Shown here piece after piece: positions 1-29,798 of a stretch of DNA of 64,000 bases. The stretch's first letter is position 1, and every line of letters begins with the position of its first letter. The notes below the pieces were generated by a model, which was given only the letters and a program-made list of their open reading frames with translations, had not been told where the DNA came from and did no database searches. A program made the translations under genes and the position numbers. This DNA is from Cirrosporium novae-zelandiae (Eukaryota), in the NCBI GenBank assembly GCA_026023565.1, contig JAPETS010000007.1, positions 496,001 to 560,000 on the forward strand, given 5' to 3'.

Positions 1-1030
1 TAAAATTTTTTAGATTTATTTTTTTTTTTAAAAAAATTAATATATAAAACGATTATATAACGTTTTTTCGATATTTTTTTTTTATATATTTTATTTCTAT
101 TTTTCGGGTAATTAAATATTTTCCGTCCGTGGCTATATAGAGGTCTAAACAGTTTATGTATTTCAATAAAATATATATATAAGCCCCCGTATACACGGAT
201 TTATATTCTATTATCCGATATTAATAATTTTACGTTTCGTATATTTCCGTATATATCGTGTATTTAGAGGTTTTATTTCTATATTCCAAAAATAATTTAT
301 ATTTTAATTAAACGTATTTTAGATACGTTTTATTTATTTTTAACGTAAATTATCGGATATATCGAAATTTACGTCCCGTTAAATAATAATTTTCGATTTT
401 TTATTTTTCGTATATTATAAACGGAAATCTTATTTTAATTAAAATAATATATTTTTTTAATATAAATCCGGTTCGTACCCGTTTTTAGCGGTATTTTTCC
501 GGCGTTATTTATACGATTATCGTATTTCGGAATAATTAATAAATATTTTTTAGATTTTTATTTAATATAAAATTTTTAATAAATATATATTTATTATTAT
601 ATTATTTATTTTTATTATAATTTTTAAAATTTTTTATTTATATTTAAATATTAATATATCCGTATTAATTTTTTTATCGAACGTAATTTTTAAATTATTT
701 TTTTTATTAATATAGATTTCCCGTACCCGTAATTCAGGCGGTACGTTTAAATTAATTAAATTAGCGTTAATCGCCGTTATTATTAATATTATAAAACCCG
801 AATATTCGGTTTTTTTTTTATTAAAAATCAGTATTTTCTGATTTTTAATTTTTATATCCCTGTTTACGGAACTAATACGTTTTTTTTTATAGGATTTGAT
901 TATTTATTATTTTTTATTAAATTTGTCTGTTATTCTACTGGCTATTTTGATATAAATAAATCCCGTAAATTCCGGCGTTATTTTTACAGAAATCTATTTC
1001 GGGGCCTTCGGTATTAGCGATAGAGTTTTT

Positions 1031-3092: not shown

Positions 3093-3101
3093 ATTCCTCT
3101 C

Positions 3102-3360
3102 TAAGCGATATATAGACATAAAACAATGAATAATCATTATCATCATAGCGCTAAAAAACTATCCGGTTAAATAAATCAAATAATTTTAGGAAACCCAAAA
3201 AAAGGGGGAAACTATATAGCCGAATTAAGGAGGTAATCCTTACTATCTTAGTTAAAAGTAAACCCGAAAAAAGATATAAAAAGGCCTGAAATCCCTAAAT
3301 AGAGTCCGTCATAGCTTTTAAGCGATATATAGATATAAAATAATGAATAATCATTATCAT
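3102..3360. repeat. 42-bp direct repeat pair (3102-3143, 3319-3360)
   Basis: taagcgatatatagaYataaaaYaatgaataatcattatcat is present twice and differs by two C>T changes. Confidence 0.85.
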
Positions 3361-4029
3361 ACGCGTTTAGAAACGTTCAGACTATTTATAAGTAAAAATA
3401 AATAGAAAATTAATAATATATTACCGTAGAATTTTTAAAAAATCCTAAATTCCTTTAAATTATATAATTCTCCGAAACGTTTTTATATTTCTGTTCAATA
3501 AATTTTTTATAATATCTGGAAATTATAAAAAATTGGAGCAATTAATCGAAAATTTGGATATTATTAAAAATAACGATAAAAAAATATTATAGAATAAAAT
3601 TAAAAAATCAATCTAAACGATTATTAGAAAGAAAATTTTAAAAACAATTAAATTAATTATTTAAACGGAAAAATTAAATAAATTACAAAATATAAAACGT
3701 ATTAAAATTAAAATCGATTTTAATACGAGATTTACAAATAAAATTATAATAGAAAAATCGAAAAAAAAAATTGTAAACGAAACAAAACGGGAAAACTTTT
3801 TAGAAAATATAAAACCGCTAGAATACTAAAAATAAAATTAAGGGAGGGGCTAAAAAATTGACAAACGCTTTTTCGGAGCCATTTAATTGACATTGTATAT
3901 TGCAATTTGAATTAGAATAGTATATGACTCTAGGAATATAAGACGTTGTAGAAATGGTCGAGGTTTGGGAGGCTTGATGAGGCTCGCTTAAAGGTGGCAC
4001 ATTAATCCGGCCGTCACACTTCGAGGGTC

Positions 4030-4986
4030 GCGATTCTATACCAAATGCTATTTGAGGGCGAACTCTGTCTTGCTCCTATCTCCACACATCCGCAGCGAGT
4101 TCTCGATCTTGGAACAGGCACCGGTATTTGGGCAATGGACTTTGCCGAGTAAGAACGTGTGTTCTATTAATCAACGCTGAGTTATACTGACCAGATCTTA
4201 ACGGATATAGCGAACACCCATCTGCATAGTTTATTAGTATGATTATGTGTTTGATTAAACCTAACAAGAAGCTAATGTGTATAGGCAGGGATCTAAGCCC
4301 GATTCAATCTTCATGGCAAAATCATTCCTGCTTACCGTCCCGGTCATAGCAGACCAATCATTTCAGGGCTCCACTCAATTGTGTTTGTGAGGTTGATGAT
4401 TATGAGGCGGATTGGCCTTATTCTCATAAATTTGATTTCATCCACGGGCGTGAACTATTGGGGTGTGTTGCAGATTATGACCGCCTATTTACACAATATT
4501 CAGACATTTACATACCGGAGGTTACGTTGAAATGCAGACCACGACACTACAGCCCTACTCCGATGATGGTACTTTGGACAAAGCTAAGAACCGTAAGGAG
4601 TTAGTGCGCTAGTTATATAACGCTAGCAAGACCTTTGGGAAAGGTATGACAATTGATATCGTGGATTCTTGGGAGGAACGCATCTTACAAGTAGGATTTG
4701 TGGATGTGTGCCGAAAGATTTATAAGGTGTGTATGATTATCATTTTTTCCATATATTGACTCTTCTTGGGGCCGTGAAACTGAGAGCATCCCAGCTGCCG
4801 TTGAGTCCGTGGCCTAAGAACCCCAAGTTGAAAGAGCCTGGGCGATATCAACAAATGCAACAGTTACAAGCTATAACCTCCAGGGAAGAAATGGAAGTAT
4901 TGCTGTCGGGCGTTCGTAGAGAGCCGAAAGATCGGTCTATTCATATATATCTCAAGGTGCATATTGTATACGCTAGAAAGCCTTGA
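4030..4986 (+). pseudogene. LaeA/TAM-like SAM-dependent methyltransferase pseudogene, 5'-truncated
   Basis: Translates as LAPISTHPQRVLDLGTGTGIWAMDFA, DLSPIQ, EVDDYE..W...FDFIHGREL and PLSPWPKNPKLKE. Has an in-frame TAG at 4227, a damaged splice donor (gcaaaa), an apparent internal deletion near 4880 and no N-terminus. Confidence 0.85.
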
Positions 4987-12023: not shown

Positions 12024-14093
12024 ATGTTGGCTAAAATAGACTGCAGCATACCCAGCCAGCCCCCAACCGATGGGGAAGCGGCACCTCTCATGGTTCCTTT
12101 GAGTCCCCCTGGCTGCGGTATTTCGGCATATGAGTCGATAGACGATGAATTAGCATCCAACCTCCCAACATACAATGGCGAAGCCCTTCCATGGAACAAA
12201 ATTGATTCTCCGCCTGAATATTCACACGTCGCTAGTGTTATCCCTTTGCTGTTTCTCGGTAATGTAACTCAGCCCTTAACCATTATTATAAATATACTAA
12301 TAGTTTTCCTATATAGGTATTTTCATCGCAGCTGCTGATGCTTCGTTACTGGTTGCAACAAATGGGAACATTGCTTCTGAATTTGGAAGGCTTCAGGATG
12401 GAAGTTGGCTCATAAATGCCTACATCCTGAGCATGTGCGCGATCCAGCCCATAGTAAGTCTTTCCAAAAGCCAACAGTTAATCGAGACTACGCGTATTCT
12501 GACTCTTCATAATATATAATAGTATGGAAAATTGGGCGACATTTATGGTACAAAACCTTGCCTCCTGATTGCCTATGCTTTTTTCGCATTCGGTTGCTTG
12601 ATCTGGTGCGTTGTTCCAAGCCAGAAGTCGGAAGTAACTTCAGTATTCTGCTTCAACAATCAAGGTTCATGCAGCTAATCTCCCATTGTGAAATAGTGGT
12701 CTTGCATTCGAGATATGGGAGGTCATTTTTGGTCGAGCTGTAAGTGGAATTGGCGGTGCTGGCATGATATCACTGGTTTCAGTTATAATTTCAGGTAACT
12801 ACTCCATACCATCTAATGGGCACTTTGATAATCAGTCGCTGACTCTTCCTACCATAGATATTGCACCAAAAAGAGATGTTGCATCGTGGAGGAGTTATGT
12901 CAATCTCTGCGTAGCGATAGGTACCAGCCTTGGAGGCCCAATGGGGGGTTTTATGGTTGACACAATTGGCTGGAGATGGATGTTCTTCATCCAAGCACCC
13001 CTTACAGCCCTCGCCGCCATCCTCGTAATATTCGGACTGAATATCCCACACCCAGACGATGACGTTCATTTTGAATACGACAATGTCGAATCATCGTCAT
13101 TCTGCTCCAAGTTCGGCCGCATAGATTTTCTCGGTACTTTCTTTCTTGCAGCCTCTATTGTCGCAAGCATACTGCTTCTTAACCTCGGTGGGCGACAGTT
13201 CAACTGGATCTCCATTCCTGCATTTTTCCTGGCAAGTACCAGCCTCATCTTCGCCACCTGCTTCATGCTCGTAGAAGTATATATAGCAAAAGAACCGATC
13301 ATCTGCCTACATCTTTTGCGGAAATCCAACGTGGTGGCCAGCTACCTTATAACATTCCTCCAGATATCTGCCCAATTCGGCCTTATGTTTTGCGTACCAT
13401 TATATTTCCAAGTGACTGCGCGATCCTCCGCCACAGCCGCAGGTGCGCATCTTATTCCCGCCATCATGGGTAACGCCACAGGGGGTATTTTCGTCGGCGC
13501 ACTTGTCAAGCATACTGGGAGGTATAAAGCGTTCATCATATCTGCAGGCCTGATTGCCAGCATAACATACATCTTCCTTCTCCTATTCTGGAATGGGTCC
13601 ACTGGCTTCTGGGGCTCCCTCTACATCATCCCAGGTGGTTTCGGAACTGGCGTCGTACAAACGGCCGTCTTTGTCGCCATGAGCTCGAAATTAGAGCCGA
13701 GAGATATTGCAATGGCAACAGGAGGATTATTTCTCAGCCAAAATATTGGAATGGTGGGTGGGATCGCCATGACGACTACAGCGTTACAATCAGCACTCCG
13801 GCAAGACCTCATTAAAAGAGTTCAGGGGAAGGATGCAATGGAAATTATCAATCGTGCCATGTCGGACGTGAGGTACATTGAAACGCTGGAAGGAGACTTG
13901 AGGGAAATAATCGTGTCGTGCTATGTGGCAGGGCTCAAACACACATATAGTATGTTGGGTCTCCATCTCCCCCAACTAACACCCCACAATATCAACAAAA
14001 GCTAACATGTATCATCAATATAGTCGTCTCACTCCTATGCGCCCTCCTCGCATTTGCGGTCTCACTAACCCTCAGAGAACACCGAGTCATATA
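12024..14093 (+). CDS. MFS transporter, 14-TM DHA2/Vba-like family (several introns)
   Basis: YGKLGDIYG, GRAVSGIGGAG, GGFMVDTIGWRWMFFIQAP and PLYFQV motifs; multiple hydrophobic helices; last exon 14023-14093. Confidence 0.9.
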
Positions 14094-14701
14094 GGCCGGC
14101 GGAGCTTCACGGACTATCTAGTCCCTTTTTCGTTCAAAGATACCACTGTCAGGCGAGCAGCGCTTGCCCACCAATAATCCCATTCATATCAATATTATAT
14201 TTTATAGGTTATCAGAAATAACTTCGTTACCTAAACCCTGGATGTAATTAAACCTTTCCCCTATACTTTCGTTCTGGCTTTATTAGTTCATGCTATCGTA
14301 CGGTACAATACTCTTCCTCGATATATAGTATCTATCGACGGACTGTAGCCTCTTCAAGTGATCATGAACATGATACATCCACAAAAGAAAATAAAAGATA
14401 GGTTAAGGCAGTGAATTCGTTCTTGTATAGGGATCCTGTATAACACTGGTAAGTATGTAAGACCTCCACTTTGGCCCCATATTTAAGCGATAGTAATGCC
14501 AGCTATGTCTACTTTCGAGTGTTGACTAGGGATAGAGTAGCAAGACTCGGTGGAAAACTCCTATTAAATCCGCGGGAAGGAAAATTGATAAAGAAAAATA
14601 GAAATCTAATAGTCAATAAACTCGGGAAATATTTTTAACATAACATTCAAATCATCGTCTTTTATTTTATTTTCATCTTGAAACTTCAATCACTTATGAA
14701 T

Positions 14702-16892
14702 CTAGAGATTGGGGTTGATAATTTTTTCCACGATTCCTACCTCAACCTCGGGCTGAAAATAAAATAGTTTCCTCCAACTTTTCCGCCACTCCTGCCCACC
14801 TGAGGCAGGAACCGCAAAAGCACGGCTAACAAGCCATATATCTTTGCCCGCCTCGATATCCCCTAGGAACGACGGAATTACGGTCTTTGGTGTCATAATG
14901 TTTGAATTTGGATCAGCGTTGATGATTTCCCCACGTCCAGTTTTCAAACGATTCTTCGAAGTTGGGTATGTCAAGGTGAGGATTCCTGAGGCACCAGCCG
15001 AGGACACGGCAAGTGCATATGTGCTAGTAGCCTGTGTACCATCAACATACGGGTTTAAGAGTTCCAAATCGGATGCAAGTTCACAGTTCGGGAATGGAGT
15101 CAGAGCACGAAGGTTGGAACCCATGCCATATAGAGAAAAGCTACCTTCGCAGGTCTTTAGATCGCGATTTGTGCGGATGTGATGGATGCGAGTGTGCCAG
15201 TTGGGTGAATGTTCCAAGGGTGGAATAAGCCAAGTTTGGACCTCAACGTCTGACCAAGGTTTCCAATCGGCTACAAGGACAGGGGTGTCGCCGTGTTTTT
15301 CAATTCGCGCATTGTGAGGATTTGACCGTGGTTTCCACGTCTCACCATTATCATCCGAAAGGGCAAACACGGAATCCAAGCCGGACTGGGAAAGACTTGG
15401 GCCGGTAGGAACGGAGTATCCAAAGGATGAGGAGTATGCGAATTTGCCGTATTTTGCTGCGCCGGCTTTAAGGTCATAGTGTGAGGATTGGCCTGAAGAG
15501 AGAAGGAATGTGTGATTGCCAAGGTGAGATATGATGTGCTTTGGTGGATCCAAAGGCACGGTTGTGTGTACGTGGGAAGTCGGCCAAGGAGCCTCTTTCG
15601 CAGACCAGAAGGGATGTGTGGTGGGGAGGGCTAGTGTTAGAAGAGATATGCAAGCCCAGTAAGGAGATTGGGGTGAATTGTAGTTTTCGGCAAGGTACAT
15701 TTGAGAATACGTATAACCGATTGTTAAGGTGCCACTAGGGGAGAAAATTCCCGGTTGCATCGCCCACCAGCGAAGGTTGCGGAGAAGAAGACCTCGGATA
15801 TGAGACCAGGTCATAGGAGCTGGTGGGTCAACATCGGCGAAGGCAAAGGCAGACCAGAAGGAGGCCATAGCGAAGCGGTAAGTTAGTGATCGACCAAAAG
15901 GGATAGCGCGACCTGAGGGAAAGTTAGCCACGCAATGGGGCCAAAAGATAAAACCAACCTTCTGGATCAAAGTAATGCACAAAAGCCTTTGCATAATCCT
16001 GTGCTCGAATTTTATATGTCTGACAGCGCTTTGGGTCAATATCAACAGCAAATTTCGAGTATAGGAGTTGTAGATATTGGATTGCAAATGAGCCCGAGTA
16101 GTAGTCCATTTGAACATGGTCTTTGGAGCCATCATTGGAGAAGCCTTCAGCAACGTAGAATGTATCAAGATGCTCCACATCTGCTTTGATGCGGTCGATG
16201 GAGTGGGGAGCACCATTATATTTCAGCCCAAGATTAGTAAATACTCGGAACCAAAGCCTGTATCATAAGTGTAAGTTGATGAGTTAGATGGTGGTACAAA
16301 GAGAGTCGTGCGAGTGGGATAGGTTCAGTGGATGGGCTTCTGGTACCAATTATTATTCGGCATCTATTCAATTAATCGATCAGTAAACATCACAAGCAGC
16401 AGCTTTCCAGTTCTCCAGCTTTCTCACCTTCTTCTCATTGATCTTCCCAAGCCATTCAGCGACATTTTCCTTTTGCTTCTCTGTCAAAGGGTTCCAGAAA
16501 GTGTCTGGGGCAACGATCAACATGAAGCCAATTGGGCACATCTCCACCATCCTCTGATCAACATCCTCTACTGCCCCCCAATATTCAGCATGGTTCGGAT
16601 CAGTTCCGTTGATCAGCCCTTTAACCCATAATTTTGTACCATCCCATTCATATCCTCCTGCCACCAAGGCACACAAGGCCCATAATGGTCGCGCATATCC
16701 TTCGAGTTGAGCAGCACTTTCGTCAAAGTGTGCGGCCGTAGTTCCGACTTTAATACGAGCTTTTTCAGGGGAAAAGTGTTGGGTGAGAGGTTCGAGAAGA
16801 GCAATACAGGCGTCTTGCAAGTCGGTCTTGGTCCGAAAAGGTAAGTTGCAAAAGGGGGAGAGGTAATTATATTTACTTTCGGAAGAAGACAT
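14702..16892 (-). CDS. DUF2264-domain protein (family containing GH154 glycoside hydrolases), 3 introns including a 17-nt micro-exon at 16347-16363
   Basis: [69 protein letters not shown] and [10 protein letters not shown] motifs; splices into an uninterrupted frame. Confidence 0.9.
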
Positions 16893-17094
16893 GGTGGCGA
16901 AATAGTTTTAATTGGAGTAATAAATGGCAATGAGATGAGACGTAGTTAGATTTAGATGGTGGGACATATTTTTCTAATTTGAAGCGAGGTCTTGGGGAGG
17001 TCAGCCATCAGCCCCGCACCCCGCAGTGAGATGAGTACCTAGGTTGGTGGGCAAGTACATAGATAGCTGATTCATAGGATAATTATTGACTTAG

Positions 17095-17156: not shown

Positions 17157-18931
17157 CCATAGTTCGGTTATTATTGTTTGGTGGTCATGTGATTACACTA
17201 GCTCAGTAGCCTATAAAGGAAATTCTTGGCCTAGACATAACTGGGACAGTTCAACTTCTGCTTCAGTTGCTTAGCTAAACTATTACTATGTATGGTATCA
17301 GGCGAAATATTCCCGAGTACGGTGGGGGGGTAAATTACTCCACACGGAATTTAGCTACTTCAAGTGTAACCATTAGGCAATATTTGGTATACTGAGCCTA
17401 CTCATTAATCTTAGAATTCTTGTTTTAGACAAGGGTTGGACGGCTTGTGCACGCTAAACTTCATTACGTTAAAGTCCATGTCATATAACCGTATTTTTCA
17501 ATGAAATATAAAAGAAAAGTAACGAAACAGGAAATATTTGGTTAAAATACAGACAACCAGGGACCCTGTCAAAAGGCGGGTCTGAAACAAGAATTCTAGG
17601 ATTAATGAGTAATGTCTACTCAAGTAATGTCGTTGGACTCGAGTAACCATCATCAAAGTCAACGTTCGGGGGATCTTTTGTATTTCCGGGTCGTACACGT
17701 GACTACACGCACGTGACACAGCAGACAACAACCTACCACCTACTTAGGTAGTTTTCTGAACTAGATTATTTTAAGGAGAAAAGGGGTGCTGGATAAACCA
17801 AACCGAACTTACATCCTCGACACCTTAGCAGTTGGATGTAAAAGTAATTGACTACATAGTTAATTATCTAAACAGAAATCTGCTTCAACCAACCAACTAT
17901 TTAGCTGGGTTTGGTTGAAATAATTATTGAAATCTTCCTTTGTTGCTTATCCCTTCTTCCTTCACCTGGTCTCACCCGGTCTCACTAGGTGTCTTTCAAC
18001 CGTACAAAAATAGGATTTGTGAGTCGCACACTGGAGAGTATACATACATTGATACGATATGCCCTCCCTGTTGCCAATAACTACACTATATTTAATTCGA
18101 GAAGTTTTATGGGTTAAAATAGCCTATTCGTTAACCTGGTAATAGGGATTGGATTAGATGGCCTACGCGGCCCACACAGCACTGTCCAGTGTCCAGTGTT
18201 CAGTGGCGGTCGGCCCGATAGACTAGACTAGATGAGATGAGATTGAAACTAACCGGCTAGTTTTCCCTTGGTTAATGAACCGTACAAATAATTTCCTACC
18301 AAATGCGACCGTTGGATATTGCAGGGACCAAAGTATCCTTGTTACTATTAGTAATTACGTTTACGAAGTTTGCTTCCAAACTGGCACACTAATGGTTACC
18401 ATCTAGCAGGGGATTCCATGGAACGTTTGGAAACTGGGGTTCATTTACAGTAGTGTGCCATCGACGGCCTAAGACATCGTTAACTGAACCTTCAACTGAC
18501 AACAAGTCGAAAATGCACATACCCCAGAACACGAAAAGATCGACTACCTCGGTTGTACGCAGCTACGAGTTTAAGGAATAGAGATTAAAGATCGGACTAT
18601 TCCCTAAACGTTGCAGGAATGCCTATCAATCTCGCGTTATCTGAAGGATTATTCGTGTGATCCACACTCGTCTAGTAAATTGATGCTATGAAATTGTTTC
18701 CCCATGCTATCAAACGTATGTGCGCGCGCACGGCACCATAGGTAAAGATTATCATTTCTTGAATCCAAAGTAAAAGAGTGATCGGCCCAGATCATACCAA
18801 ATACGTATCTATATTATCCCCCCAACGTTACCTGGTAGTTATCCAACATATTCCCCAACCAACCCTGCAGCTCTCTGCCCAAGAATATTGAAGTTATCTC
18901 CCGGCTTATGAAACAAGGGGACATAATTCCC

Positions 18932-20403
18932 TTAGAAATTATTGTAGTTTTGCCTTCCCATCCGACTTCCGCTCCGTGTGCTCCCTTCCCTTTCGTAATC
19001 CACGTACACATCCGTCTTGATATTGATGTTCTTCTTTCCGCTCGGTAAGATATCCTCCTGACTTGATGTCTCAATATTCGCGACGGTGTCGCTGCCATCA
19101 TCTGTAGAGCGACCCGCGTGCGTGGTGGGGGCAGTGGTACTGCCCTTGGCGCCATATTCGACGGAAGAGAGGGGCATGGATTTACCACGGGAACGACTGC
19201 GGCTATAAGCACCGCCAATATCGTAGGAGTTGCTATGTGTTGTAGTTTTGTTGCGAACGACCGAGTAGACAGGTTTGAGAGCTGGAATAGTGGCGCAGAT
19301 GATAATAACGTACATCTCGGCCGTGTACCAGACCGTAATCTCAGCCCAAGCCCCTATTAAAAGCTGTTAGTAAAGCTTTCTCGATTTTCTGCATAGGAGA
19401 GATCGCACAGGTAATATCAGACTGGTTGGGCAAATTCTGCAGCAGGACAGCTTTCACGGTAGTAGCTGCCGCGGCACTAGAAACATAGAATTGTCAGCTA
19501 GAACGCCCGATAATGACGAAACCAGAATTTGATCATTTATAATGGTGAACCATGAAGCCACATCTATACAATGCAGATAAAATAGGCGAGCACTTTCTTT
19601 TCCTAACCATGAAGAAAGCTAGAGACGGATATTTGGGAAGCACTGACAATACGCCCACGCCTGTAACTGCTGTCAAACTAAGTTTCGTCTTGAGGTCCAT
19701 ATTCAAGGGCCAGAAAATTGTGATCGGGAACAGGGCTAATACTAAATCGGAAATCGCATTGTATGCTGATGGAAATTGTTAGCTCGACACCCATATTCGT
19801 AAGTTAAGAAGCCCAACCTACACGCTTGGATGTACGCTCCGATTAGTTGATCTTGAACGGTCATACAAACTCCAGGTACCGATGGACGCCAAATTTTCTC
19901 GGCTGGTACACAGAACCCAATAATGACAATGATACAAACAACGTTGGTGATAATCAAAATTAGGCTTAGTATGTAAAGGAACCACTTTTTCATTTTCGTC
20001 CCCCCCTGGCCCATTATTGCGAGTAGAAAGAAGACAATTGAGATCTTCCCCGTTGTAGTGCTAACCATGCAGAAAATTGAAGGAAGGACGGTATATTTGT
20101 ATGCCATGATTTGCTGTTCGGGGTCTTCGATGGACGCATAATGCCTCCCCAATCCATAATGAACACCTACAGTATCTAATGATGTGCAGACAATGGCAGA
20201 AAGCTATAGCGCATGAGTGGTCATTCAATATACGAGTAGAGAAGGTGCCTTACCAAAGAGAAGACAATGAAAAAATCATCCCACCCGGCCCTTTTAACGA
20301 CCATCAGGCGAATCCATAATCTCATTGCAACCACAATTATGGCAAGAGATCCTAGGACCCAGCCAAGGGTCTCAATAAGCGGACCTTTATTATCTGTAGT
20401 CAT
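18932..20403 (-). CDS. PTH11-like/SAT4-family rhodopsin-domain integral membrane protein without CFEM (4 introns)
   Basis: MRLWIR..GWDDFFI, YGLGRH, GKISIVFFL, C.PAEKIW...VPGVC, SDLVLALFP and E.YVIIICATIPALKP motifs; hydrophilic C-terminal tail. Confidence 0.9.
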
Positions 20404-21910
20404 CCTCGTAAATGATCAGGAATATAAGAAAGAACGTAGAAACAAAACTGGATATCGGAAGCCAGACTCTTTTAATATTGGGGAAAGATATATATAACGT
20501 AGAGTTCAGGTATCCAAGGTCAAATTCGATGACTGGTCCCCTAAGACTTCATGATGCCCCCCGAATGTCTTGATAAGTACTGGGTGACTTATCGAAGCAG
20601 GTGATCCAACGGTGGTTTTCAGTGGTCATGGCTATTGGCTGTTAACGTTCCGCTCTTGAACGTCAGGGATTTTCGGGGATAGATGATTCCTATTAGCGTC
20701 TGTTACAGAGCCAGAAACGATATGCAATGTAAAGAATTTAGAGTTGGGCAGGTCCCTTGTGCCTTGACATTTCCCTTGACAAATGTCAAAATAGGAACAA
20801 TTGACTTTGTAACCGAAGCCAACGTATGCGACATGCTGTGTAGGGAAGTTGGGGAACTGTGAAATGGACGTAAAGCACCAACGGCTCCTAAGGATATACA
20901 GTACCTACTACCGGGAGCAGCCTAACTTCCCCGGCATCCGGGGCTAACAAAAAACTAAGGGATCGCTCTTGTCAAAATAAAATGGGGCACGCCAAACCGT
21001 TACTGGTGACTGGTAATGATGCCAGACAAGCTTCGACAGACGCTATGAATTTTAATCAATAGCAGTGGGAGGATTCGAGGAAGTATTGTTTGTAGCTCTT
21101 GGTAAGGTCTTGGAAATTTGGTAGCAATGACCGATCCATTTCCATCTTGGGTAATCATCGCTTGTAGTCTCAAGTCTGAATATGGGTTGGAAGGAATGCT
21201 TAATGTTCTCTGCAGATTAAGGATATTCATGATTTGATTATTTCTGCAGGAACAATCAACTGCCGAACGCGTAAGAAGCCCATTAGGTAAGACGGAGATA
21301 GCCTCATATAGGTGTGCAATCCTAGTTCCAAAACTTCTCATAGCGAATACAGAAGTTGGTGGTAATCATAGAATGGAAGGCACAACTATATAGTTGGTCG
21401 CATATAGTTGCAGACGATACTTTCGACTCACTATCAGTCCGCCGTTGTTCCACTGTTGAAAGATACCATTAGCCCAATATGTCCCGCTTTCCGCGGTGGA
21501 GATCAGCCGGCACCGACTTTCTGATCACTAACTGCCCCCAGTCCCAAAAGCCCACCCCATAAGAATCAGATGCTCAATTGAGCCTATGTTCTGAGAGGCG
21601 CAGATTATACTTCACTAATGCACGTTAGCATTAGAAGGTTTCGTCTATCACTGAATATGGAGCTACGAAATCTCTCAAAATTACAATCAAGACACTATCG
21701 CCCTCCGAATAAGGTTCAAATGAGAGCCCATTTGAGTCTTATCATGCGAGTCCTTGAATAGATCGAATCGAAGTTGGAACAATAGTGTCAAGAAAGTGAC
21801 AACCGGTATTGGGCTTTTCCCATCCTTAAATAAGGGACATGGTCCCAGCTGTAGCAAGCTCTGACCGTATTATGAAAACTACCCCTCCTTTTCTAAACTG
21901 ATATTCGACA

Positions 21911-23525
21911 ATGACAGTTCAATCCCAAGCTGAAGAAGTGTTGAGACTCGTAGGTGAGATTGATACAGCATCTCAAGGGTTCAAAGACTCTGCTCCCTCC
22001 GAAACGACGAGAATCGCCACATTGGAAGCAGCAAAGAAATTAGTGGCTACGTTAGACAAGCCAGAAGATACTATATACAAGCATGCTTACCTGGTAATCT
22101 TCATGATGCATAACCCGCGTGTTGTTGTTGTGGTTTTCAGGATGCTAAGCTTGCTTTTCAACTCTTTAGCCTACCCAAACCTTTGCGTCGAGAGTAGCCA
22201 TTGACCTCGATATCTTCAATATTCTCATGAAAGCCGATGGCCCCATGACTGCAAAAGACTTGGCCGAAGTCACCGATGCTGATCATGTTCTTATTGGTCT
22301 GTATCTAAGATTGCTTCCATAAGGTATAAAGTCATGGGTGCGCTAATATTTTCCCTTATAGTTCGAGTAATGCGCATCCTTGCGTTGATCAATTTCGTGA
22401 CAGAAACTGGGCCTCAAACTTATGCACCATCGGCTCTAACAAAGACGTTGACAGATAAATTCATCCGGGGCATGCTCAAATCAATGTATGTTATTATTAA
22501 TACCCAATTCACCACTCGCAGTAAGCCAAATCAGGCCAATTTCATGCCGATCGGTTTGTCTGAAAACCTCCCGGTACGTCGTGCGGTCCAATCGACTCCG
22601 AATTTAGGACATGATCTGGATCTGCTCATAGTACACTGGTGATGGCTTCAGGCACAACCGATAAGCCCCAGTGTTCATGCTTGCTGCACATTGATTTATT
22701 ATAATCACCCGTCTGATCAATCTAGTCGTTATGCTGATGATCAATATTCATATTAGATATGATATAGGGACCTTGGTATTGGCAAGCAGCCCGCAATACC
22801 TCAGAAACATCAAGCATCAGAACCACTTAACTCAATCCAAAGGCCCATTCGAATTTGCAAACAGAACAGACTACAACTTATTTGGATGGCTTGGCACTCA
22901 TCCCGAGGCCTTTGATGACTTCAACACTTTCATGGAAGGCAACCGTGGAAGCAGGCCGGCTTGGGTGCATTGGTACCCAGTTGAAAAACAGATTCTCGAG
23001 GGCTTCGATAGCAAGGAAGATGCAGTGTTGTTCGTGGATGTTGCTGGGGGACGTGGACATGACCTGGAAGTATTCAGGTCAAAATTCCCGCAAGCTCCTG
23101 GTCGACTAGTACTTGAAGATCTTCCGAGCGTAATTGATGATTCCAAGGGTTTAAACGAACGCATTGAGAAAGTCAAGCACGACTTTTTCACACCCCAACC
23201 AATCAAAGGCGCTCGTGTCTACTATATGAAGTTTGTTCTCCATGACTGGGAAGATGGGAAATGTGGAGAAATTTTAAAGCATATCACTGCAGCCATGACT
23301 AAAGGATATAGCAAGCTCATTGTGGAAGATTTTATTCTTCCGGACGTTGGCTGCCCTCTTCTACCGGCCATGTGGGATATTGAAATGATGGCCTTTTGCA
23401 ATGCTCTGGAGAGGTCAAGACAGCAGTGGTTGGATCTTATGGAATCTTGTGGTCTTGAGGTTAAAGGGTTCTGGCCTCCACCTGGAGATGGCCAAGGAAT
23501 TATCGAGGCGATGCTGAAGGAGTAG
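21911..23525 (+). CDS. Fungal SAM-dependent O-methyltransferase (secondary-metabolism type), 3 introns
   Basis: FVDVAGGRGHDL, LVLEDLP, HDFFTPQPIKGARVYYMKFVLHDW and ERS..QW motifs; introns ~22094-22169, ~22297-22361 and 22486-22756 preserve the frame. Confidence 0.93.
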
Positions 23526-24316
23526 GATGTGTATCTTTGGGGGTAGAGTAGTCTCTCCACTAAGAATTGGCAAAGCCTTTGTGAATCTAATTGGGATAGA
23601 AAGCCATGGGCGTGATGTATTTGCCACCAAATTCGTATAGGAGGGATTTTTCGGAAATAGATAGTTGTAAATTGCCTAATAAATGTTAGACCATTTATTG
23701 ATAAACCTAACCTTTAACCTGCCACAGTTTGTATTGCATTAATATCCTTTGATGTGTATGGTTTATAGGGCGCTGGTAAGGAGCTCGGCATGGATTTTGG
23801 AGCACAGCTGGCATCTAAAAGTAGTCAGCCTTAAATGCCAAGTTTGGCGCTAAAGCTTAAACTTGTAGCCGCCACTACCACGACCCTTAGCTACTTCGGG
23901 TAGTTTCTTAAATCCTTTAAGGTGTACCCGTTACAGCACTTACTTCCTATTGGTCAGCCGTCGGTGACCGAACCCCCTAAGAATGAACTTCTGGTTCCTA
24001 TTTTCTATATATGAATTCAAGGGTGGCTTTTGATTCGGCAATAATACACAGACTGCCATCATACACCCGATCTATACTTTTTGCGCAGCCAAACATTTCA
24101 GCTGCTCCCTTGCGAGCATAAGATCTTCAAAATCAATATCTCTTCTATCATGCCCGTTGATCTCTTGCACCGTCATACTAGACGCCCCTCTGTTCGGAGC
24201 TTCAAATCCCCCTCTTGCTAGTTCATATAACGTAATTCCTCCCTCACTTCCTTCCATCACATCCATAATTCTCATATTTCGAGAACAAAAGAAAGCGGTC
24301 TGAAGTATTATCTCTA

Positions 24317-26059
24317 TCATTGTCGTGGTTCCATACCATAAAAAGCATTTGCAAATTCTTCTCCATTCCCTATTCCTCCTACATATCTTGCGTCCTGGGT
24401 CCCAACCCCTAGTGCGCTTAATTGTAACTGGTCACCGATCAACTCACCATCTCCTTCCAGACCAGACGAACTGATACCATCCATCTGCATCATTCCACCC
24501 ATCTCAGCTGCAGGTGCAAGTGAACTTACCGCGATGGCTGACTCGAGATCGGTTTCAGGATCAAGTTGGACTGGATTGGCGGACGATGATGTGTCTTCGG
24601 AGGAGTTGGGGGTGGGATTCTGGTTTTGGTTCTTGGTATTAGGCTGAGGCACTAATGATGATGGATGGTGATGGTGAGAGCGAGAAGAGTTAGATGGGGT
24701 ACGCTGATACGCCGATGGGGGATAGCCTTGTTGAGTTGCGGTAGCCATGCTAGTCATGATCTGTGGGTCTAGAGGAATGTTCGGATATTCCGGTGGAACA
24801 CCTTGATGAAGGTGGTGATTCGAAGAGGAAAACGTTTGGCGGGCGTTAGTGTCGGCATCCACCATTGTAAGATCTCCGACCGGCTGAGAAGGGCTATGGC
24901 GTGCTTTGGAGTCGACAATGGTTTTTGCCTGTCCTTGTACATCCATAGCGTTGCCACGTCTTGATGGTATGGAGTCAGAGGATCTTGTAGCAATAGGCGC
25001 CTTGTTCAAATCTTTGCACTCGGCGCAGTTTTTGATAACAGTGCTGACTGTTTCTTTGATCCGAACCCAATGATACTTTTCAGCAATTGTTGCTGTCGTT
25101 TTGTTAATTCCGCCATGATTCTGGGCGTGCACTTTTCTCGCGATATCATACTGAGCAGCTGGGTCGGCAATGACCTCTTTGTCTTTCAGCATCAGAATTT
25201 CTTCACCGTTGTTGTCAGATGCAACTAGTTTATAGTGTGTTGCAGCACTTCGAAGGCGTGATTTTTCCGCTCGATCAGCGCCACTTGGATATTTTCCGTG
25301 CTTCAAATAAAAGCGTATCTTGTCAAATCGTTCTTCAGAGACAAGATCTTCTCCTTCTTGCCCTAGGTCTCGACCATAAATGATAGCATCTATAAATTCA
25401 TCTGGATATGAACGAAGCTGCCCGCAGCCCTTAACACGACCAATACGCTTAAAGCCTAGGGCTTCCCAGATCCGACAAGACGCTACGTTGGTTTCGTAAA
25501 CAAGATTGAATACTGAATAGGTGTAACCTAGTTTAGGTGCCCAGTCAAGATAGCATTCACCCATTAAACGCCCAACGCCTCGATTTCTGGAGGTATCCGT
25601 GACAAGAAAACCTCCATTGCAAACATGAGAACTGCGACCTGGGTAGTTTGGTTTGATGTAGAAGCTGCCAAGGCATACCTTCTCCCAATCGGTACGAGTT
25701 TGCTCCATTTGTGAGACAGTAGAGGTATCTGCAATGTTGCCAAGGAACATGATAGCACCAAAATTTGCAAACCAATAAGGGCCAAAGAGTTCTATGGGCA
25801 ACGGAGAATTCATTGGGTAGGTGTCACCTTTTTCGATTTCACGATTGAGCTGGTCGCAAAGATAGACAAGGAGAGACTGGGGAACTTGAGAAGGACATGA
25901 AAACGGAACAAGCGTTGCAACAGTAACACGGTCACGAAGAGTTACCTGACGTGAAGAGATTGCAAGCGGCAGCTGAGGATTCCCGGGGTCTGGATAGGGT
26001 GGTTGACCGGATGTGCGGTAGAAGATTGGAGTATTTGGATCATCCAGCATGGCCGGCAT
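24317..26059 (-). CDS. SPT10: Spt10-like histone acetyltransferase (GNAT domain plus HHCC zinc-binding domain)
   Basis: LGSFYIKPNYPGRSSHVCNGGFLV, RNRGVG, YSVFNLVYETNVAS, then H..NHGGINKTT...KYHW...C..C; intronless 580-aa ORF. Confidence 0.85.
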   Translation of the reverse strand: MPAMLDDPNTPIFYRTSGQPPYPDPGNPQLPLAISSRQVTLRDRVTVATLVPFSCPSQVPQSLLVYLCDQLNREIEKGDTYPMNSPLPIELFGPYWFANFGAIMFLGNIADTSTVSQMEQTRTDWEKVCLGSFYIKPNYPGRSSHVCNGGFLVTDTSRNRGVGRLMGECYLDWAPKLGYTYSVFNLVYETNVASCRIWEALGFKRIGRVKGCGQLRSYPDEFIDAIIYGRDLGQEGEDLVSEERFDKIRFYLKHGKYPSGADRAEKSRLRSAATHYKLVASDNNGEEILMLKDKEVIADPAAQYDIARKVHAQNHGGINKTTATIAEKYHWVRIKETVSTVIKNCAECKDLNKAPIATRSSDSIPSRRGNAMDVQGQAKTIVDSKARHSPSQPVGDLTMVDADTNARQTFSSSNHHLHQGVPPEYPNIPLDPQIMTSMATATQQGYPPSAYQRTPSNSSRSHHHHPSSLVPQPNTKNQNQNPTPNSSEDTSSSANPVQLDPETDLESAIAVSSLAPAAEMGGMMQMDGISSSGLEGDGELIGDQLQLSALGVGTQDARYVGGIGNGEEFANAFYGMEPRQ

Positions 26060-26662
26060 GTTGGATGATGCTGGATGATGAGAACGAGGTAGGGTTGCCC
26101 AGAGTCAGCTGATTGATATGAATTACTCAAGCTGGGGGGAAGTCGGGTCAAGAACAATGAGATTGTGCGGGGGAGGGGGAGGGGGGGGATTGTCAAATTT
26201 GACCTTGATGGTAATATCAGATTCTGAATGGGCCCCACTAAGCACAGAGCAATGCAATTGAAAGAGCGTATGCAAGGGCATAAAACGAATATCAACAAAA
26301 TTCCTAATACAGGGTGAAGGCTTGTCGTAGGCTGTGGCAGCTTGAGATTGTTTGCAGGAGAGTAGTGATAGATTCAACTCTCAAGGACTGTCGAGTACTC
26401 ATGATCATCAGCCTCGGGAGCCAGTTGACGCTGATGGGGGGTTCTCACTTGCAAACGTGTGGCATTCGTGGTGCCCAAGTTTCTCCAAGTTTGAAGTTAA
26501 CTAGATACAAACTACGACTACAGCGAGTGCTACGATCGTCAGTTTGTTCGCTTAACACATACCACCCTTACGGTAAAGTATACAGGCACGTGCAATATTA
26601 CATACAGCATAGATGCCTAAGGTGTTGATTTTAATTATCTATTTATAATTTAGACTATCTAG

Positions 26663-29600
26663 TTATGTACTCTGCCTTTTCTTCATGTACTCTTCCACCT
26701 CGTGATATGTCGGCCACCCACCCCAGCTTTTTTGATTCTTGATCAATTCCTGAATTTTTAGCATCACCTCCTTATGAATAGGAGTCCCTTGGTCATCGCA
26801 TTGCTCCAGAAATATCCTTATACATGTCAAAGTCCTTCTCATAAGTCTATCTCCATTGGCATATTGCTTCCGCTCTTTTTCAAGCTCCTTATCATGAATG
26901 CACATCCATTTAATGAGATCTACCAGAGTCTCGTAATCGTTGGCTGACTGCAGAACCTGTATGAACACATGTAGGTGAGCTGGGTGAGGGATAGCCAACA
27001 GCCATGGAAGCTCAGTCGAAGAGTTATGGGCATTTGACTGAGCAGAATCTGTAATCACTGGTTCACCTTGGCCAAACCTGGATCCGACTAGTCTATTGAA
27101 TATCACCAGTATGTCCTCCATACTAGGAGTAGCATCAGCACCCCAACTTGAAAGCTGTTTATACCACTTGCTCTCATGCTGTGGATCCTCCTTATAAGCA
27201 TGCTTGAGGCCTTGGACCCTTTTTAAGAAACATTCGCATACATTACTGAATAATTCAAAGTTGAGGTGCACCCCAGCTGCTATCATGCAATTTACGACTT
27301 TGACCGTGATTGTCCAAGATGCAATGTCCTGAAAAGTTGTATTCTGTTGATGCAGGTGAGGGCATATCACCCTCCCTGGCTGCTTTAAGGCATGCAGTAT
27401 ATGATTCCAGTCTTTCCCGCCCGTCGACTGTCGCAGCCTTGTGAGGTGGATAGCATGGAAAAGAGGATTGTTGATTGGAGAACGACGCCGTGCCCATTGA
27501 ACCCAAGAGAAAGCGGTAGGGGCTGAGGTACAGAGTACCCTAATCCACTGACAGAATATTTTCTCGGGTATGTTCTTTACATTGCTTGTAACAGATACAT
27601 CGGTACACGACAAAACGTCAATTACCTCTCTAGGTAATGTACTGGATTCTAGATACCGAAAACCTTCATTTAGGGTTTCAGTATATCGAAAAAAGCCACC
27701 CAAAATTTCCTCTGTTGGTCGGAGTCCGATTTCCATCATCTGGTTGAAGAAATTATCAACCGATGGAGGTGGACTCCGCGGGTACACAGCTTCCTGAGGA
27801 TCCGAAGACTGAACAAAGAGCTCCTTCCTATCTCCTGGGAGAACATTGGTGCGGTGTGTTACAATATTAGAACCAATAAATTCAACCCTTTGACGCTTTC
27901 GTTCTAGTGCAAGTTTTTCAAAAATTGAAAAATAAACGTTTAAAGAAGGAGGAAGGGAAGAATCTTTATAGGCCAAGAAGCAAGCCCAGGCTTCCTGTAT
28001 TGTTCTTGTAGCCTTAATACGAGCTACCCAGGAATGCGTATTATCCAGCACAGCACCAGAACTTGGCTTATCCTTAACAGAAAAGCGCCTCATAATCGTG
28101 CGAGTCTGGATAGTAGGACTTCTGTCAGTATCCCAGCCAGCAAAAATATTTGCCTCTTTCTCCCAGGCAGTATGAGTGTATCCGGAATTCATCATCTGTG
28201 CCAATGTTTTCGTAGCTCGGCTCAATCCCATTTCTTGTGATATCCTTTCGGAGTCAATTCCTAGTTTGTCCTCCCTCCAAGGAGGCCATGATTTTGCTTT
28301 CATCTCAGCTCGTTGCCGTTCCTCCGGACTCTTTTTATCAGCAAGCTGGACACTTGCAATCGCACGGTAGGCCTCTCGGCTAACGACCAATAGAATTCCT
28401 AACTCTTTTGAGATGTGATCCATTGTTCTCAAGATATGGAATTGCGCTTGTTGGCGATATGTTGCATGTGCAAAAGGATGTTCAGAGGACGGTAAGGACA
28501 ATAAACGAATCATTCGACAGAACATGAAATTCAGATTCTTTAACGTCGGTGTGCTTAATTTATGGTGTTCTCCAGAAGCTTGCCACAGCAGGTTTTGAGA
28601 AACAGCGCGACAAAACATTGATGCAATCCAAGGAAGAGCTTCTGGCCAAATACGTCGAGCATGGCGCATGAGTCGTATTACTATCACTGCTATTGTTGTA
28701 GGGTCAATGGTTGATGGGTGTAAGGGAGAAGCCGGAAATAACCTATCGCGAGTATAGCTATATGTTTCGGAAGCTGGAAGCATTTTTGATTCGCATACTG
28801 GTTCCAAAAAACTAGAAGCATATTCCGTTAGGATTTTCAATGCATGTACATTAATATCCTTTCTTCGGAGTAGAAACCCGAATATTGATGTTGGGACTCT
28901 GGTTCTTTGGCAAGCAGGAGCCCTGCAAGAGATTGATACAAGCCTTTGCGCAGCTTCTTCGGCGGTATCGGAAAGAATCATCGATGCCCAAGGCATTACA
29001 TCGAGTATATCTAGACCTAGTCTTCGTAGGTATTCCTTGTTCTCCTCTCCATAGGCATTTTGCAGCGCACCATTAAGGTCCAAATCTGGAGACGCACGTT
29101 TCAGTTTTTTTTTTGATAAGAAAGGTTGGACAAATCGAATATGATCTGCCAATATAGTAAGAGAGGACCTTCTACAAGGTAGTGCCAACTGCCTAGAAGG
29201 AAAATAAACGCTCTTCGTAATAGTAGTTGTTGATGAAATATCTGTTGTTAAATTGAGAGGAAGTTGGCTTGGGTCAAACCGAGAGAGATCTCTCTTGTTT
29301 AGTTTAACTTCCCGGTAGGGGACGGCGGCTTGGCTTTGTATATCCTCCAGCGCCGCAATTAAATACTCAGATGGTGTCACTGTCTTCGTTCTATCTCCTC
29401 TAAAGCTCCCACCTTTGCCTACCCGGACCTTGTCAAAGTTATGTATTGTAGGAGAGGCCCCAGCGGGAACATTTTCTGCGAGGTTCTTTCGTTGGCTATC
29501 AGTGGCGGTTGGCATGATGCCACCGTGATTTGATCCACAGCTAGGAAATTCTCCATTGCAACGACTCCCTGAGGAATAAAGCCTTGGTGGCTGTGACGTG

Positions 29601-29798
29601 GGTCTCAGGTTGAAACGTTTGGAAGGGCCCTTGGCTGTGATGGATTCCTAGAAATATCTTAATTTATATGCTCAAGAGATGGAGTAAATGATTAATACTT
29701 ACTTGAAAATATTGAACAGCTGGAAGAAAATAAAGAGTGGTTGGAGATATTCTCTCCAGCGTGGAGCCGAAAGTTGTAAAGAATATAGACCGGGGCAT
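26663..29798 (-). CDS. Large conserved-type hypothetical protein, possibly mitochondrial and helical-repeat (PPR-like)
   Basis: 950-aa ORF extends upstream in frame through a phase-0 GTAAGT..CTAG intron (29702-29648) to an ATG at 29798 (MPRSIFFTTFGSTLERISP...). Function is a guess. Confidence 0.7.

What the first reader, a model, noticed from the sequence alone, without database searches (positions are those of the whole stretch)
22486..22756. Oversized O-methyltransferase intron filled by a ~170-nt rod-like RNA hairpin
Seen: intron 3 is 271 nt, whereas most introns here are ~50-80 nt. Bases 22518-22687 pair nearly end to end: gcagtaagc (22518-26) with gcttgctgc (22679-87); atcggtttgtctgaa (22550-64) with ttcaggcacaaccgat (22647-62); cctcccggtac with gtacactggtgatgg; gtcgtgcggtccaatcg with tgatctggatctgctcat; closing on tcc-gaattta-gga. 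The arms are not clean DNA inverted repeats: the differences are G-U wobbles and single-nt bulges, which favours pairing in the sense RNA. Inference: a selected RNA structure. It could be an introner-like element (known from Dothideomycetes as long hairpin-forming introns), a milRNA/mirtron-like precursor, or a cis-regulatory splicing switch.
Basis: partly seen in the sequence, partly recalled or inferred. Interest (0 to 1): 0.8.

Follow-up and report, generated by a model that had tools for sequence, protein, structure and literature searches.

The report
Old fungal intron enlarged by hairpin
An old, normally short intron of a fungal methyltransferase gene has grown about fivefold through extra sequence that folds back on itself; this is probably a tolerated insertion and not a new kind of RNA element.

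Summary
The 271-nt intron (22486-22756) and its 170-nt hairpin (22518-22687) are real. The spliced gene reproduces a 400-aa O-methyltransferase annotated in a Cirrosporium novae-zelandiae MAG. The hairpin beats its own shuffles on the sense strand (z -3.25, 0 of 200; antisense z -1.40).

It is not exceptional at window scale. It ranks 14 of 2128 GC-corrected windows, and equally good palindromes turn up 0-7 times per shuffled 59.5 kb.

The G-U argument for sense-strand selection fails: 5 G·U against 4 A·C, plus 10 other mismatches and 15 gap columns.

The intron site is old. Eight homologous loci carry a phase-2 intron at the same codon, 50-58 nt long, so this is not an introner-born intron.

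I found no second copy in the window or in the source run's 35.7 Mb of contigs at 80% likeness or more, and no Rfam match.

Best reading: a single-copy, GC-richer palindromic insert in an ordinary intron. It loops out like a yeast "zipper stem". A 10-bp helix covering the 5' splice site stacks on its base. Interest is low.

The parts
21911..23525 (+). O-methyltransferase gene (400 aa; Pfam Methyltransf_2 in the last exon). Exons 21911-22093, 22170-22296, 22362-22485 and 22757-23525.
   Evidence: The spliced CDS equals P0001. P0001 is 100% identical and is named as a hypothetical protein of a Cirrosporium novae-zelandiae MAG. Exon map by tblastn. PF00891 E 3.7e-20.
22486..22756 (+). Intron 3: 271 nt, phase 2, GTATGT donor, TAG acceptor. 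The site is shared with homologues, where the intron is 50-58 nt.
   Evidence: Same-codon phase-2 introns in L002, L003, L005, L021, L022, L023, L024 and L027.
22518..22687 (+). Imperfect palindrome, predicted as a 170-nt rod hairpin with 56 bp. GC is 0.51 against 0.31 in the intron sequence on either side.
22478..22487 (+). Last 8 nt of exon 3 plus the GT of the 5' splice site. This is the 5' strand of a perfect 10-bp helix.
   Evidence: Inverted repeat I2. Pair probability 0.73-0.88 and duplex energy -8.6 kcal/mol. A 10-nt perfect complement is reached by 10 of 2000 shuffles of the flanks.
22688..22697 (+). The 3' strand of that helix. It begins at the base immediately after the rod, so the two helices can stack.
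22734..22738 (+). Likely branch site CTGAT, with the branch A at 22737, 19 nt before the acceptor. A second CTGAT lies at 22713-22717, 40 nt before the acceptor.
   Evidence: Motif scan. The CTRAY consensus is recalled, not taken from a call.
22491..22505 (+). Left copy of an imperfect 15-nt direct repeat (12 of 15 identical); the right copy is at 22696-22710. Removing one copy and everything between them leaves a 66-nt intron. The repeat is not above chance.
   Evidence: Family D2. 262 of 2000 shuffles score as high.

Best explanation
Intron 3 is an ancient intron with a conserved position, and it is about 50-60 nt long in relatives. In the Cirrosporium lineage it took up roughly 200 nt of extra, GC-richer sequence that is a degenerate inverted repeat with arms of about 80 nt. 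The source was either a foldback or MITE-like relic, or filler or inverted duplication laid down during break repair.

The hairpin is therefore first of all a by-product of a DNA palindrome. Nothing shows that it is an evolved RNA gene.

Mechanistic consequence (inferred). In the pre-mRNA the insert pairs with itself and loops out. The path from the 5' splice site to the branch site then falls from 251 nt to about 81 nt, or about 50 nt if the 10-bp helix between the exon end and 5' splice site and the base just 3' of the rod also forms. That keeps a fivefold oversized intron within reach of a short-intron splicing machinery, as zipper stems do in long yeast introns.

Shown: the intron model, the age of the intron site, the predicted fold and its statistics, and the absence of other copies at 80% likeness or more. 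Inferred: that the extra sequence was inserted, where it came from, and any effect on splicing.
For: (1) The gene model and intron borders reproduce the annotated protein, and homologues align across the junction without a gap.

(2) Of the 22 best homologous metagenome loci, 10 break at residue 145-147. I modelled 9 of these; L025 was left out because its layout matches L023. Eight of the nine gave a GT..AG phase-2 intron of 50-58 nt at the same codon. Five of 29 ORF fragments in the protein database also begin their homology at residue 145 or 146.

(3) The other two introns of the gene are 76 and 65 nt.

(4) Rod GC is 0.51 against 0.31 for the 101 nt of flanking intron, and 0.37-0.41 for introns 1 and 2.

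(5) The rod folds better than its own shuffles, 0 of 200 as good, with pair probabilities mostly 0.9-1.0.

(6) Only the self-match was found in the 64-kb window. Only 1 of 157,048 contigs of the source run lies on the region at 80% likeness or more.

(7) Linkers of 32 nt (5' splice site to rod) plus 49 nt (rod to branch A 22737), or plus 28 nt (to A 22716), total 81 or 60 nt. [quoted passage not shown]

(8) The 10-bp helix over the 5' splice site is in the MFE of the wider context and has pair probability 0.73-0.88. Chance reaches it in 10 of 2000 shuffles.

(9) Repeats inserted into regular fungal introns are on record (PMC3609843, section 0 part 1). A MITE-like element with 32-nt TIRs lies 5 kb away at 17399-17611.
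Against: No TSD abuts the arms, and the 15-nt flanking direct repeat is at chance level (262 of 2000). No second copy was found. Nothing therefore positively identifies a transposon.

No orthologous intron from a close relative is available, so insertion is inferred only from the length in distant homologues and from composition.

Palindromes this good arise 0-7 times per shuffled 59.5 kb, and the rod ranks only 14 of 2128 in GC-corrected stability. Part of the pairing could be chance.

Arm identity of 53 of 72 ungapped columns implies either old age or an imperfect founder. Keeping about 200 neutral nt for that long in a short-intron genome is itself unexplained.

The 10-bp helix buries the GU of the 5' splice site (unpaired probabilities 0.01 and 0.10). 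That could hinder splicing as easily as help it.

The zipper-stem criteria come from S. cerevisiae. No RNA data exist for this organism, so splicing itself rests on annotation and homology.
Confidence: 0.55

Rival explanations
1. A selected, functional RNA structure. One form is a splicing switch, in which the helix covering the 5' splice site, stacked on the rod, gates U1 access and so controls intron retention and methyltransferase output. The other form is a Dicer substrate, a mirtron-like milRNA precursor.
For: The sense strand folds better than the antisense strand (z -3.25 against -1.40). A perfect 10-bp helix sits exactly on the exon end and the GU, and exactly abuts the base of the rod. 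It has pair probability 0.73-0.88 and chance reaches it in 10 of 2000 shuffles. A retained intron would end the protein before the methyltransferase domain, because the exon 3 frame meets a stop at about 22640. The extra length has persisted although the arms have diverged.
Against: There is no excess of G·U over A·C (5 against 4), and the crude G·U-aware score is higher on the minus strand. Stability is not unique in the window. No Rfam family matches. No conservation or covariation data can be had. After allowing for the several coincidences one might have noticed, the helix's p of about 0.005 is only borderline.
Confidence: 0.15
2. Chance or neutral drift. The intron simply grew through small insertions and slippage, and the best fold of about 200 nt of unselected sequence happens to be a rod. 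There was no palindromic founder and there is no function.
For: Equal or better palindromes occur 0-7 times per shuffled 59.5 kb and at 7-9 real loci. The rod ranks 14 of 2128 in GC-corrected MFE. The whole intron has only z -2.21, 7 of 200 shuffles as good. The arm alignment has 19 mismatched and 15 gapped columns against 53 matches.
Against: None of 200 shuffles of the 170 nt fold as well. For a region fixed beforehand (this intron), the chance of such a rod is roughly 1% or less. The rod and its flanks differ sharply in GC, 0.51 against 0.31, which suggests a discrete foreign block. All 56 pairs form a single rod.
Confidence: 0.2
3. An introner-like element or another proliferating intron, such as the symmetrical (stw)introns of Hypoxylaceae. 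On this reading the whole intron was created recently by insertion of a mobile, hairpin-forming intron.
For: It is longer than regular introns, has a stable predicted structure and carries canonical splice signals. These are features of ILEs (PMC3609843). Its arm identity of about 74% resembles the roughly 73% TIRs of the Hypoxylon sister introns (PMC8469720 section 3.5).
Against: The intron site is shared, in the same phase and codon, with eight homologous loci that carry 50-58-nt introns there, so the intron was not gained here. No other copy was found in the window or in the source run's contigs at 80% likeness or more. The arms are internal, 32 and 69 nt from the intron ends, and not terminal.
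Confidence: 0.04
4. An intron-hosted snoRNA of H/ACA type: a hairpin followed by ACA at 22688-22690.
For: The location is intronic. An ACA triplet directly follows the basal stem, and a large internal loop sits above a 9-bp lower stem.
Against: No Rfam snoRNA match falls inside the intron, even at E up to 10, and nothing in the window reaches a gathering score. There is one 170-nt rod where the usual architecture has two short hairpins with an H box (architecture recalled, not from a call). The host is a methyltransferase gene of a family linked to secondary metabolism, not a highly expressed housekeeping gene.
Confidence: 0.02

Closest known systems
Zipper stems of long S. cerevisiae introns (e.g. 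RPS17B, RPL7B). PMC12350175: passages read. 10.1101/2025.03.14.643126: abstract start seen in a search listing only.
   Same: [quoted passage not shown]
   Different: This is a 56-bp, 170-nt rod and not a short stem. It sits in a Pezizomycotina gene whose normal introns are about 50-80 nt. An added helix buries the 5' splice site itself. There is no probing or mutational evidence and no sign of conservation.
Introner-like elements of Dothideomycetes (van der Burgt/Collemare). PMC3609843: section 0, part 1 of 3 read.
   Same: Longer than regular introns, a stable predicted structure and canonical splice signals.
   Different: ILEs are near-identical multi-copy introns tied to intron gains. This one appears single-copy and sits at an ancient intron site.
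Repetitive elements inserted within regular spliceosomal introns, noted for Rhytidhysteron, Fusarium graminearum and Sclerotinia in PMC3609843; and MITEs in general.
   Same: An existing intron lengthened by a discrete, inverted-repeat-bearing block of different composition. A clear MITE-like element lies 5 kb away.
   Different: No second copy, no TSD next to the arms, and no sequence match to the neighbouring MITE-like element.
Internally symmetrical sister (stw)introns of Hypoxylaceae. PMC8469720: abstract and section 3.5 read.
   Same: Imperfect inverted repeats at about 73% identity that could make the intron RNA double-stranded, and no flanking target duplication.
   Different: Those repeats are terminal, 45-55 nt long, multi-copy and at novel gene positions. 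Here the arms are internal, about 80 nt long and single-copy, in an old intron.
Short 8-12-bp inverted repeats between an exon end and the far end of inserted intron DNA, seen in gained introns of fungi and Daphnia. PMC3596301: passages read.
   Same: A 10-bp inverted repeat with one arm on the end of exon 3 (plus GT) and the other at the 3' edge of the extra block.
   Different: That paper concerns newly gained introns. Here the block lies inside an old intron, and the paper's proposed guiding role is itself a hypothesis.

Membership tests
Introner-like elements (ILE) | Many near-identical copies in one genome | tested here: not met
   Only the self-match in the 64-kb window. One of 157,048 contigs (35.7 Mb) of the source run lies on 22200-23000 at 80% likeness or more. 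The whole genome is not held, so copies below 80% remain untested.
Introner-like elements (ILE) | Associated with intron gain (a lineage-specific intron position) | tested here: not met
   A phase-2 intron at the same codon in 8 of 9 modelled homologous loci, 50-58 nt long.
Introner-like elements (ILE) | Longer than regular introns, with a lower predicted folding energy | tested here: met
   271 nt against 76 and 65 nt. Whole intron z -2.21, rod z -3.25.
MITE | Terminal inverted repeats bounded directly by a target-site duplication | tested here: not met
   The bases next to the arms differ (CTC to the left, ACA to the right). The only flanking direct repeat lies 12 and 8 nt away and is at chance level (262 of 2000 shuffles).
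MITE | A multi-copy family | tested here: not met
   with the same caveat that the whole genome could not be searched.
Zipper stem (as defined for S. cerevisiae introns, PMC12350175) | [quoted passage not shown] | tested here: met
   56-bp rod. Linkers of 32 + 49 = 81 nt (branch A 22737) or 32 + 28 = 60 nt (A 22716). The criteria were read. The branch site is predicted from a motif only.
Zipper stem (as defined for S. cerevisiae introns, PMC12350175) | Forms in vivo and promotes splicing | not testable with these tools
   No RNA run is listed for this organism. There is no probing data.
Symmetrical sister (stw)introns of Hypoxylaceae | Terminal inverted repeats of 45-55 nt that reach the intron ends; multi-copy; at novel positions | tested here: not met
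   The arms start 32 nt from the intron's 5' end and stop 69 nt from its 3' end. The block is single-copy and the site is old.
Any Rfam family (snoRNA, miRNA, ribozyme, cis-regulatory element) | A covariance-model match | tested here: not met
   Scan of 21800-23700 at E up to 10 gave 3 weak matches, none inside the intron. The whole window at gathering thresholds gave 0 matches. ARAGORN found 0 genes in 22300-22900.
milRNA or mirtron-like precursor | Discrete small RNAs of about 19-25 nt mapping to one arm, dependent on Dicer | not testable with these tools
   No RNA or small-RNA data.

The most novel reading that the evidence does not exclude
The rod and the stacked 10-bp helix that buries the exon end and the GU of the 5' splice site form a structural splicing gate in a filamentous fungus. 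When folded, the 5' splice site is hidden, the intron is retained and the protein is cut short before the methyltransferase domain. When the short AU-rich helix melts or is unwound, the rod acts as a zipper and the oversized intron is spliced. The same rod might alternatively feed Dicer as a mirtron-like milRNA precursor. Either would be an evolved function for a palindromic insert in a little-studied fungal class (Xylobotryomycetes).
Probability: 0.1. Interest if true: 0.55.

Novelty: new member of a known kind. Interest (0 to 1): 0.2.

Why it matters
If the best reading holds, this is a routine example of how a short-intron fungus can tolerate a large insertion in an intron: the insert pairs with itself, so the splice signals stay close together. 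That supports the idea that zipper-like intron structure is a general permissive feature outside budding yeast. It does not open a new question.

The practical value is negative. The intron should not be counted as an introner or as evidence of recent intron gain, and its hairpin should not be annotated as an RNA gene without RNA data.

The one element worth a bench test is the 10-bp helix over the 5' splice site.

Tried and rejected
Whole-genome copy search: no genome is held for this window. As a substitute I laid the source run's contigs on 22200-23000 at 80% likeness. Only the source contig matched. Two other runs of the same study gave nothing, and the tool warns that this can be a false blank.

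RNA evidence: no RNA holder is listed.

Earlier findings of this scan: nothing by sequence, nothing for this genome, nothing nearby. The word search 'intron hairpin' returned only prokaryotic and phage tRNA or group I/II intron cases, which have no bearing here.

Orthologue covariation: the nearest protein relative is 55% identical. The eight homologous introns show no similarity to this intron above shuffles; the best is L002, with a fraction of 0.03 uncorrected over 8 tests. blastn of the intron against the 80 fetched loci (380,713 nt) gave only 14-16-nt chance matches. A covariation test was therefore not possible.

TSD reading of the 15-nt direct repeat: rejected as chance (262 of 2000).

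Stwintron reading: the donor context is AAT|GTATGT, not the G|GT form needed for a donor-split nested intron. An internal GTACGT at 22575 has no CTRAY-plus-acceptor partner that I could see by eye. I did not pursue this further.

C/D snoRNA reading: the UGAUGA-like and CUGA motifs are in the wrong order and coincide with the branch-site candidates. Rejected.

tRNA or SINE origin: ARAGORN found nothing.

BLAST self-comparison for inverted repeats was too insensitive and missed even the candidate. I replaced it with a banded dynamic-programming scan.

Two fold scans failed on time or connection and were rerun at coarser steps. The minus strand was not scanned with RNAfold.

Intron-length survey of the whole window: not done, because there are no gene models. 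The statement that regular introns are 50-80 nt rests on this gene's two other introns and on the eight homologous introns.

Full report
WHAT IS THERE

The region belongs to a four-exon gene on the plus strand, with exons 21911-22093, 22170-22296, 22362-22485 and 22757-23525. The spliced translation is letter for letter the 400-aa protein P0001. The database lists P0001 as a hypothetical protein of a Cirrosporium novae-zelandiae metagenome-assembled genome. That species belongs to Xylobotryomycetes, Pezizomycotina. The last exon carries the Pfam O-methyltransferase domain (PF00891, E 3.7e-20).

The introns are 76, 65 and 271 nt. Intron 3 (22486-22756) starts GTATGT and ends TTAG. It splits codon 145 after its second base. 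It has two CTGAT branch-like motifs, 19 and 40 nt before the acceptor. Homologous proteins align on both sides of the junction with no residues missing; for example P0006 residues 103-149 map to 22355-22495 and residues 147-397 map to 22758-23510. The 271 nt are therefore non-coding. No RNA run is listed for this organism, so splicing rests on annotation and homology.

THE HAIRPIN

The energy is -58.9 kcal/mol against -44.8 ± 4.3 for dinucleotide shuffles (z -3.25, 0 of 200 as good). The reverse complement reaches -52.7 kcal/mol (z -1.40, 17 of 200) and loses part of the rod. The whole intron gives z -2.21 on the plus strand (7 of 200) and z -1.29 on the minus strand (21 of 200). In a 371-nt context, the basal stem and most of the core have pair probabilities of 0.9-1.0.

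The description 'nearly end to end, differing only by wobbles and single bulges' is too generous:
- 112 of 170 nt are paired, and a large internal loop (22527-22549 / 22663-22678) is open in the centroid.
- A DNA-level alignment of one arm with the reverse complement of the other has 53 matches, 5 G·U, 4 A·C, 10 other mismatches and 15 gap columns.
- G·U and A·C are balanced, and a crude G·U-aware pairing score is higher on the minus strand (44.1 against 41.0). The sense-strand argument therefore fails.

HOW UNUSUAL IS IT?

Against its own shuffles the rod is clearly unusual. Against the window it is only moderately so.
- Raw MFE: 9 of 1064 plus-strand 170-nt windows reach -58.9 or lower.
- After a quadratic GC correction, the candidate ranks 14 of 2128 (z -2.18), even though its own borders were on the grid.
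- A banded palindrome scan of 4501-64000 (the AT-rich first 4.5 kb was left out) finds 9 loci (strict scoring) or 7 loci (lenient scoring) at or above the candidate's score. Six block-wise dinucleotide shuffles per scheme give 1-6 and 0-7 such loci.

A rod of this quality is thus expected a few times per 60 kb by chance. It is expected with about 1% probability or less in one pre-chosen 271-nt intron. Two things remain distinctive. All 56 pairs span the centre; the largest other value I saw was 51, in the top-15 list of the coarser scan. The rod also accounts for the excess length of the intron.

THE INTRON SITE IS OLD

I fetched 80 homologous loci from metagenome contigs and mapped P0001 on them. 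Among the 22 loci with a long match of at least 38% identity:
- 10 break at residue 145-147;
- 9 read straight through: L001, L018, L020, L026, L028, L030, L039, L040 and L044;
- 3 are uninformative: L007, L037 and L038.

I built spliced models for 9 of the 10 loci that break; L025 was left out because its layout matches L023. Eight gave a GT..AG intron in phase 2 at exactly the same codon, just before the conserved [YF]-D motif. Their lengths are 52, 58, 50, 58, 58, 56, 55 and 55 nt (L002, L003, L005, L021, L022, L023, L024, L027). L004 gave no credible model because the contig starts too close. L021-L023 are close relatives of one another, so about six independent lineages share the site.

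Independently, 5 of 29 short ORF fragments in the protein database begin their homology at residue 145 or 146, behind unrelated residues.

The intron was therefore not created here. It is an old intron that is about five times its usual size in this lineage. None of the eight homologous introns resembles it in sequence.

THE EXTRA SEQUENCE LOOKS LIKE A DISCRETE, SINGLE-COPY BLOCK

The rod has GC 0.51. The 101 nt of intron on either side have GC 0.31, and introns 1 and 2 have 0.41 and 0.37.

The intron matches nothing else in the window; the next best hit is 25 nt at E 0.9. When the contigs of the run that holds this DNA (157,048 records, 35.7 Mb, probably the source) were laid on 22200-23000 at 80% likeness or more, only one record matched. 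It is an 8,629-nt contig that runs straight through the intron. Copies below 80% cannot be excluded, because the genome is not held.

An imperfect 15-nt direct repeat brackets the block (22491-22505 and 22696-22710, 12 of 15 identical). Removing one copy and everything between them would leave a 66-nt intron, which is attractive. However, 262 of 2000 shuffles of the flanks do as well, so I do not count it as a target-site duplication. No duplication abuts the arms themselves.

Rfam gives nothing in the intron at E up to 10 and nothing in the window at gathering scores. ARAGORN finds nothing.

A HELIX ON THE 5' SPLICE SITE

The last 8 nt of exon 3 plus the GT (22478-22487) are perfectly complementary to 22688-22697, which begins at the base right after the rod. 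In wider contexts this 10-bp helix is part of the MFE. It has pair probability 0.73-0.88 and a duplex energy of -8.6 kcal/mol, and it leaves the G and U of the splice site unpaired with probabilities of only 0.01 and 0.10. A perfect 10-mer complement between these flanks arises in 10 of 2000 shuffles. That is notable, but borderline once one allows for the other coincidences that might have been noticed.

A paper on fungal and Daphnia intron gains describes 8-12-bp inverted repeats between an exon end and the far end of inserted DNA (PMC3596301, passages). The resemblance is a lead about origin, such as repair-mediated insertion. It is not a test.

HOW IT MOST LIKELY WORKS

The linear distance from the 5' splice site to the likelier branch A (22737) is 251 nt. 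With the rod closed, the path is 32 + 49 = 81 nt, or 60 nt to the alternative A at 22716. With the 10-bp helix also closed it is about 50 nt, similar to a normal intron of this gene.

My best reading (0.55) is that a palindromic block entered an ordinary intron and is tolerated because it zips itself out of the way. The origin of the block is open: a foldback or MITE relic, or repair filler or inverted duplication. A MITE-like element with 32-nt, 94% TIRs lies 5 kb upstream, and an integrase-like ORF lies just downstream. The region has therefore seen mobile DNA, but neither element matches the rod.

RIVALS

- A selected RNA, either a splicing gate acting through the buried 5' splice site or a milRNA precursor: 0.15. 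Kept alive by the helix and by the persistence of the block. Weakened by the balanced G·U and A·C counts and by the lack of any conservation data.
- Pure chance or drift: 0.2. Supported by the window-scale controls. Weakened by the 0 of 200 shuffles and by the jump in composition.
- An introner-like or proliferating symmetrical intron: 0.04. Rejected on the age of the site and on copy number. The ILE definition is from PMC3609843, section 0 part 1. The Hypoxylaceae elements are from PMC8469720, abstract and section 3.5.
- An H/ACA snoRNA: 0.02.

VERDICT

The interpretation as a selected RNA or an introner is not supported. This is a new instance of a known kind of thing, an intron lengthened by an inverted-repeat block that folds out. 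Interest is 0.2. The only feature that deserves a bench test is the helix over the 5' splice site.

Noticed in passing
window 17399-17611: A 213-nt MITE-like element with 32-nt terminal inverted repeats, 94% complementary and 149 nt apart. Both ends read TA, which would fit a TA target duplication (a Tc1/mariner-type habit, recalled and not from a call). There is no other copy in the window and no similarity to the intron hairpin.
   Followed up: partly
window 1-4500: A very AT-rich block (GC 0.257 against 0.445 for the rest of the window), full of low-complexity palindromes. It looks like an AT isochore or RIP-type degraded repeat region. I left it out of the palindrome background scan.
   Followed up: no
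window 24317-26101 (-): A 594-codon open frame directly downstream of the methyltransferase gene, with H2C2 integrase zinc-finger domains (PF09337 E 1.2e-16, PF17921). It is probably a retroelement relic or a domesticated integrase. The neighbouring 993-codon frame at 26663-29644 (-) has no Pfam match.
   Followed up: no
window 22283-22642 (+): The exon 3 reading frame stays open for about 52 codons into intron 3 and stops near 22640. A retained intron would give a protein that ends before the methyltransferase domain.
   Followed up: no
window 50268-50527 (+): A cluster of four overlapping 170-nt windows among the best GC-corrected folds. The 260-nt stretch folds at -87 kcal/mol (z -2.06, 5 of 200 shuffles as good) and contains a perfect 11-bp hairpin. 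I did not check whether it is coding.
   Followed up: partly
loci L001-L044 (metagenome homologues): The intron at codon 145 is polymorphic across the family. It is present in 10 and absent in 9 of the 22 best homologous loci. Many loci share another break near residue 296 that the window's gene lacks.
   Followed up: partly
window 12692-16907: Upstream neighbours are an MFS transporter frame (12692-14002, +) and a DUF2264 protein (14702-16219, -). A fungal rhodopsin-domain fragment lies at 19742-20200 (-). No polyketide synthase or other core biosynthetic gene turned up among the eight large frames I scanned with Pfam.
   Followed up: no
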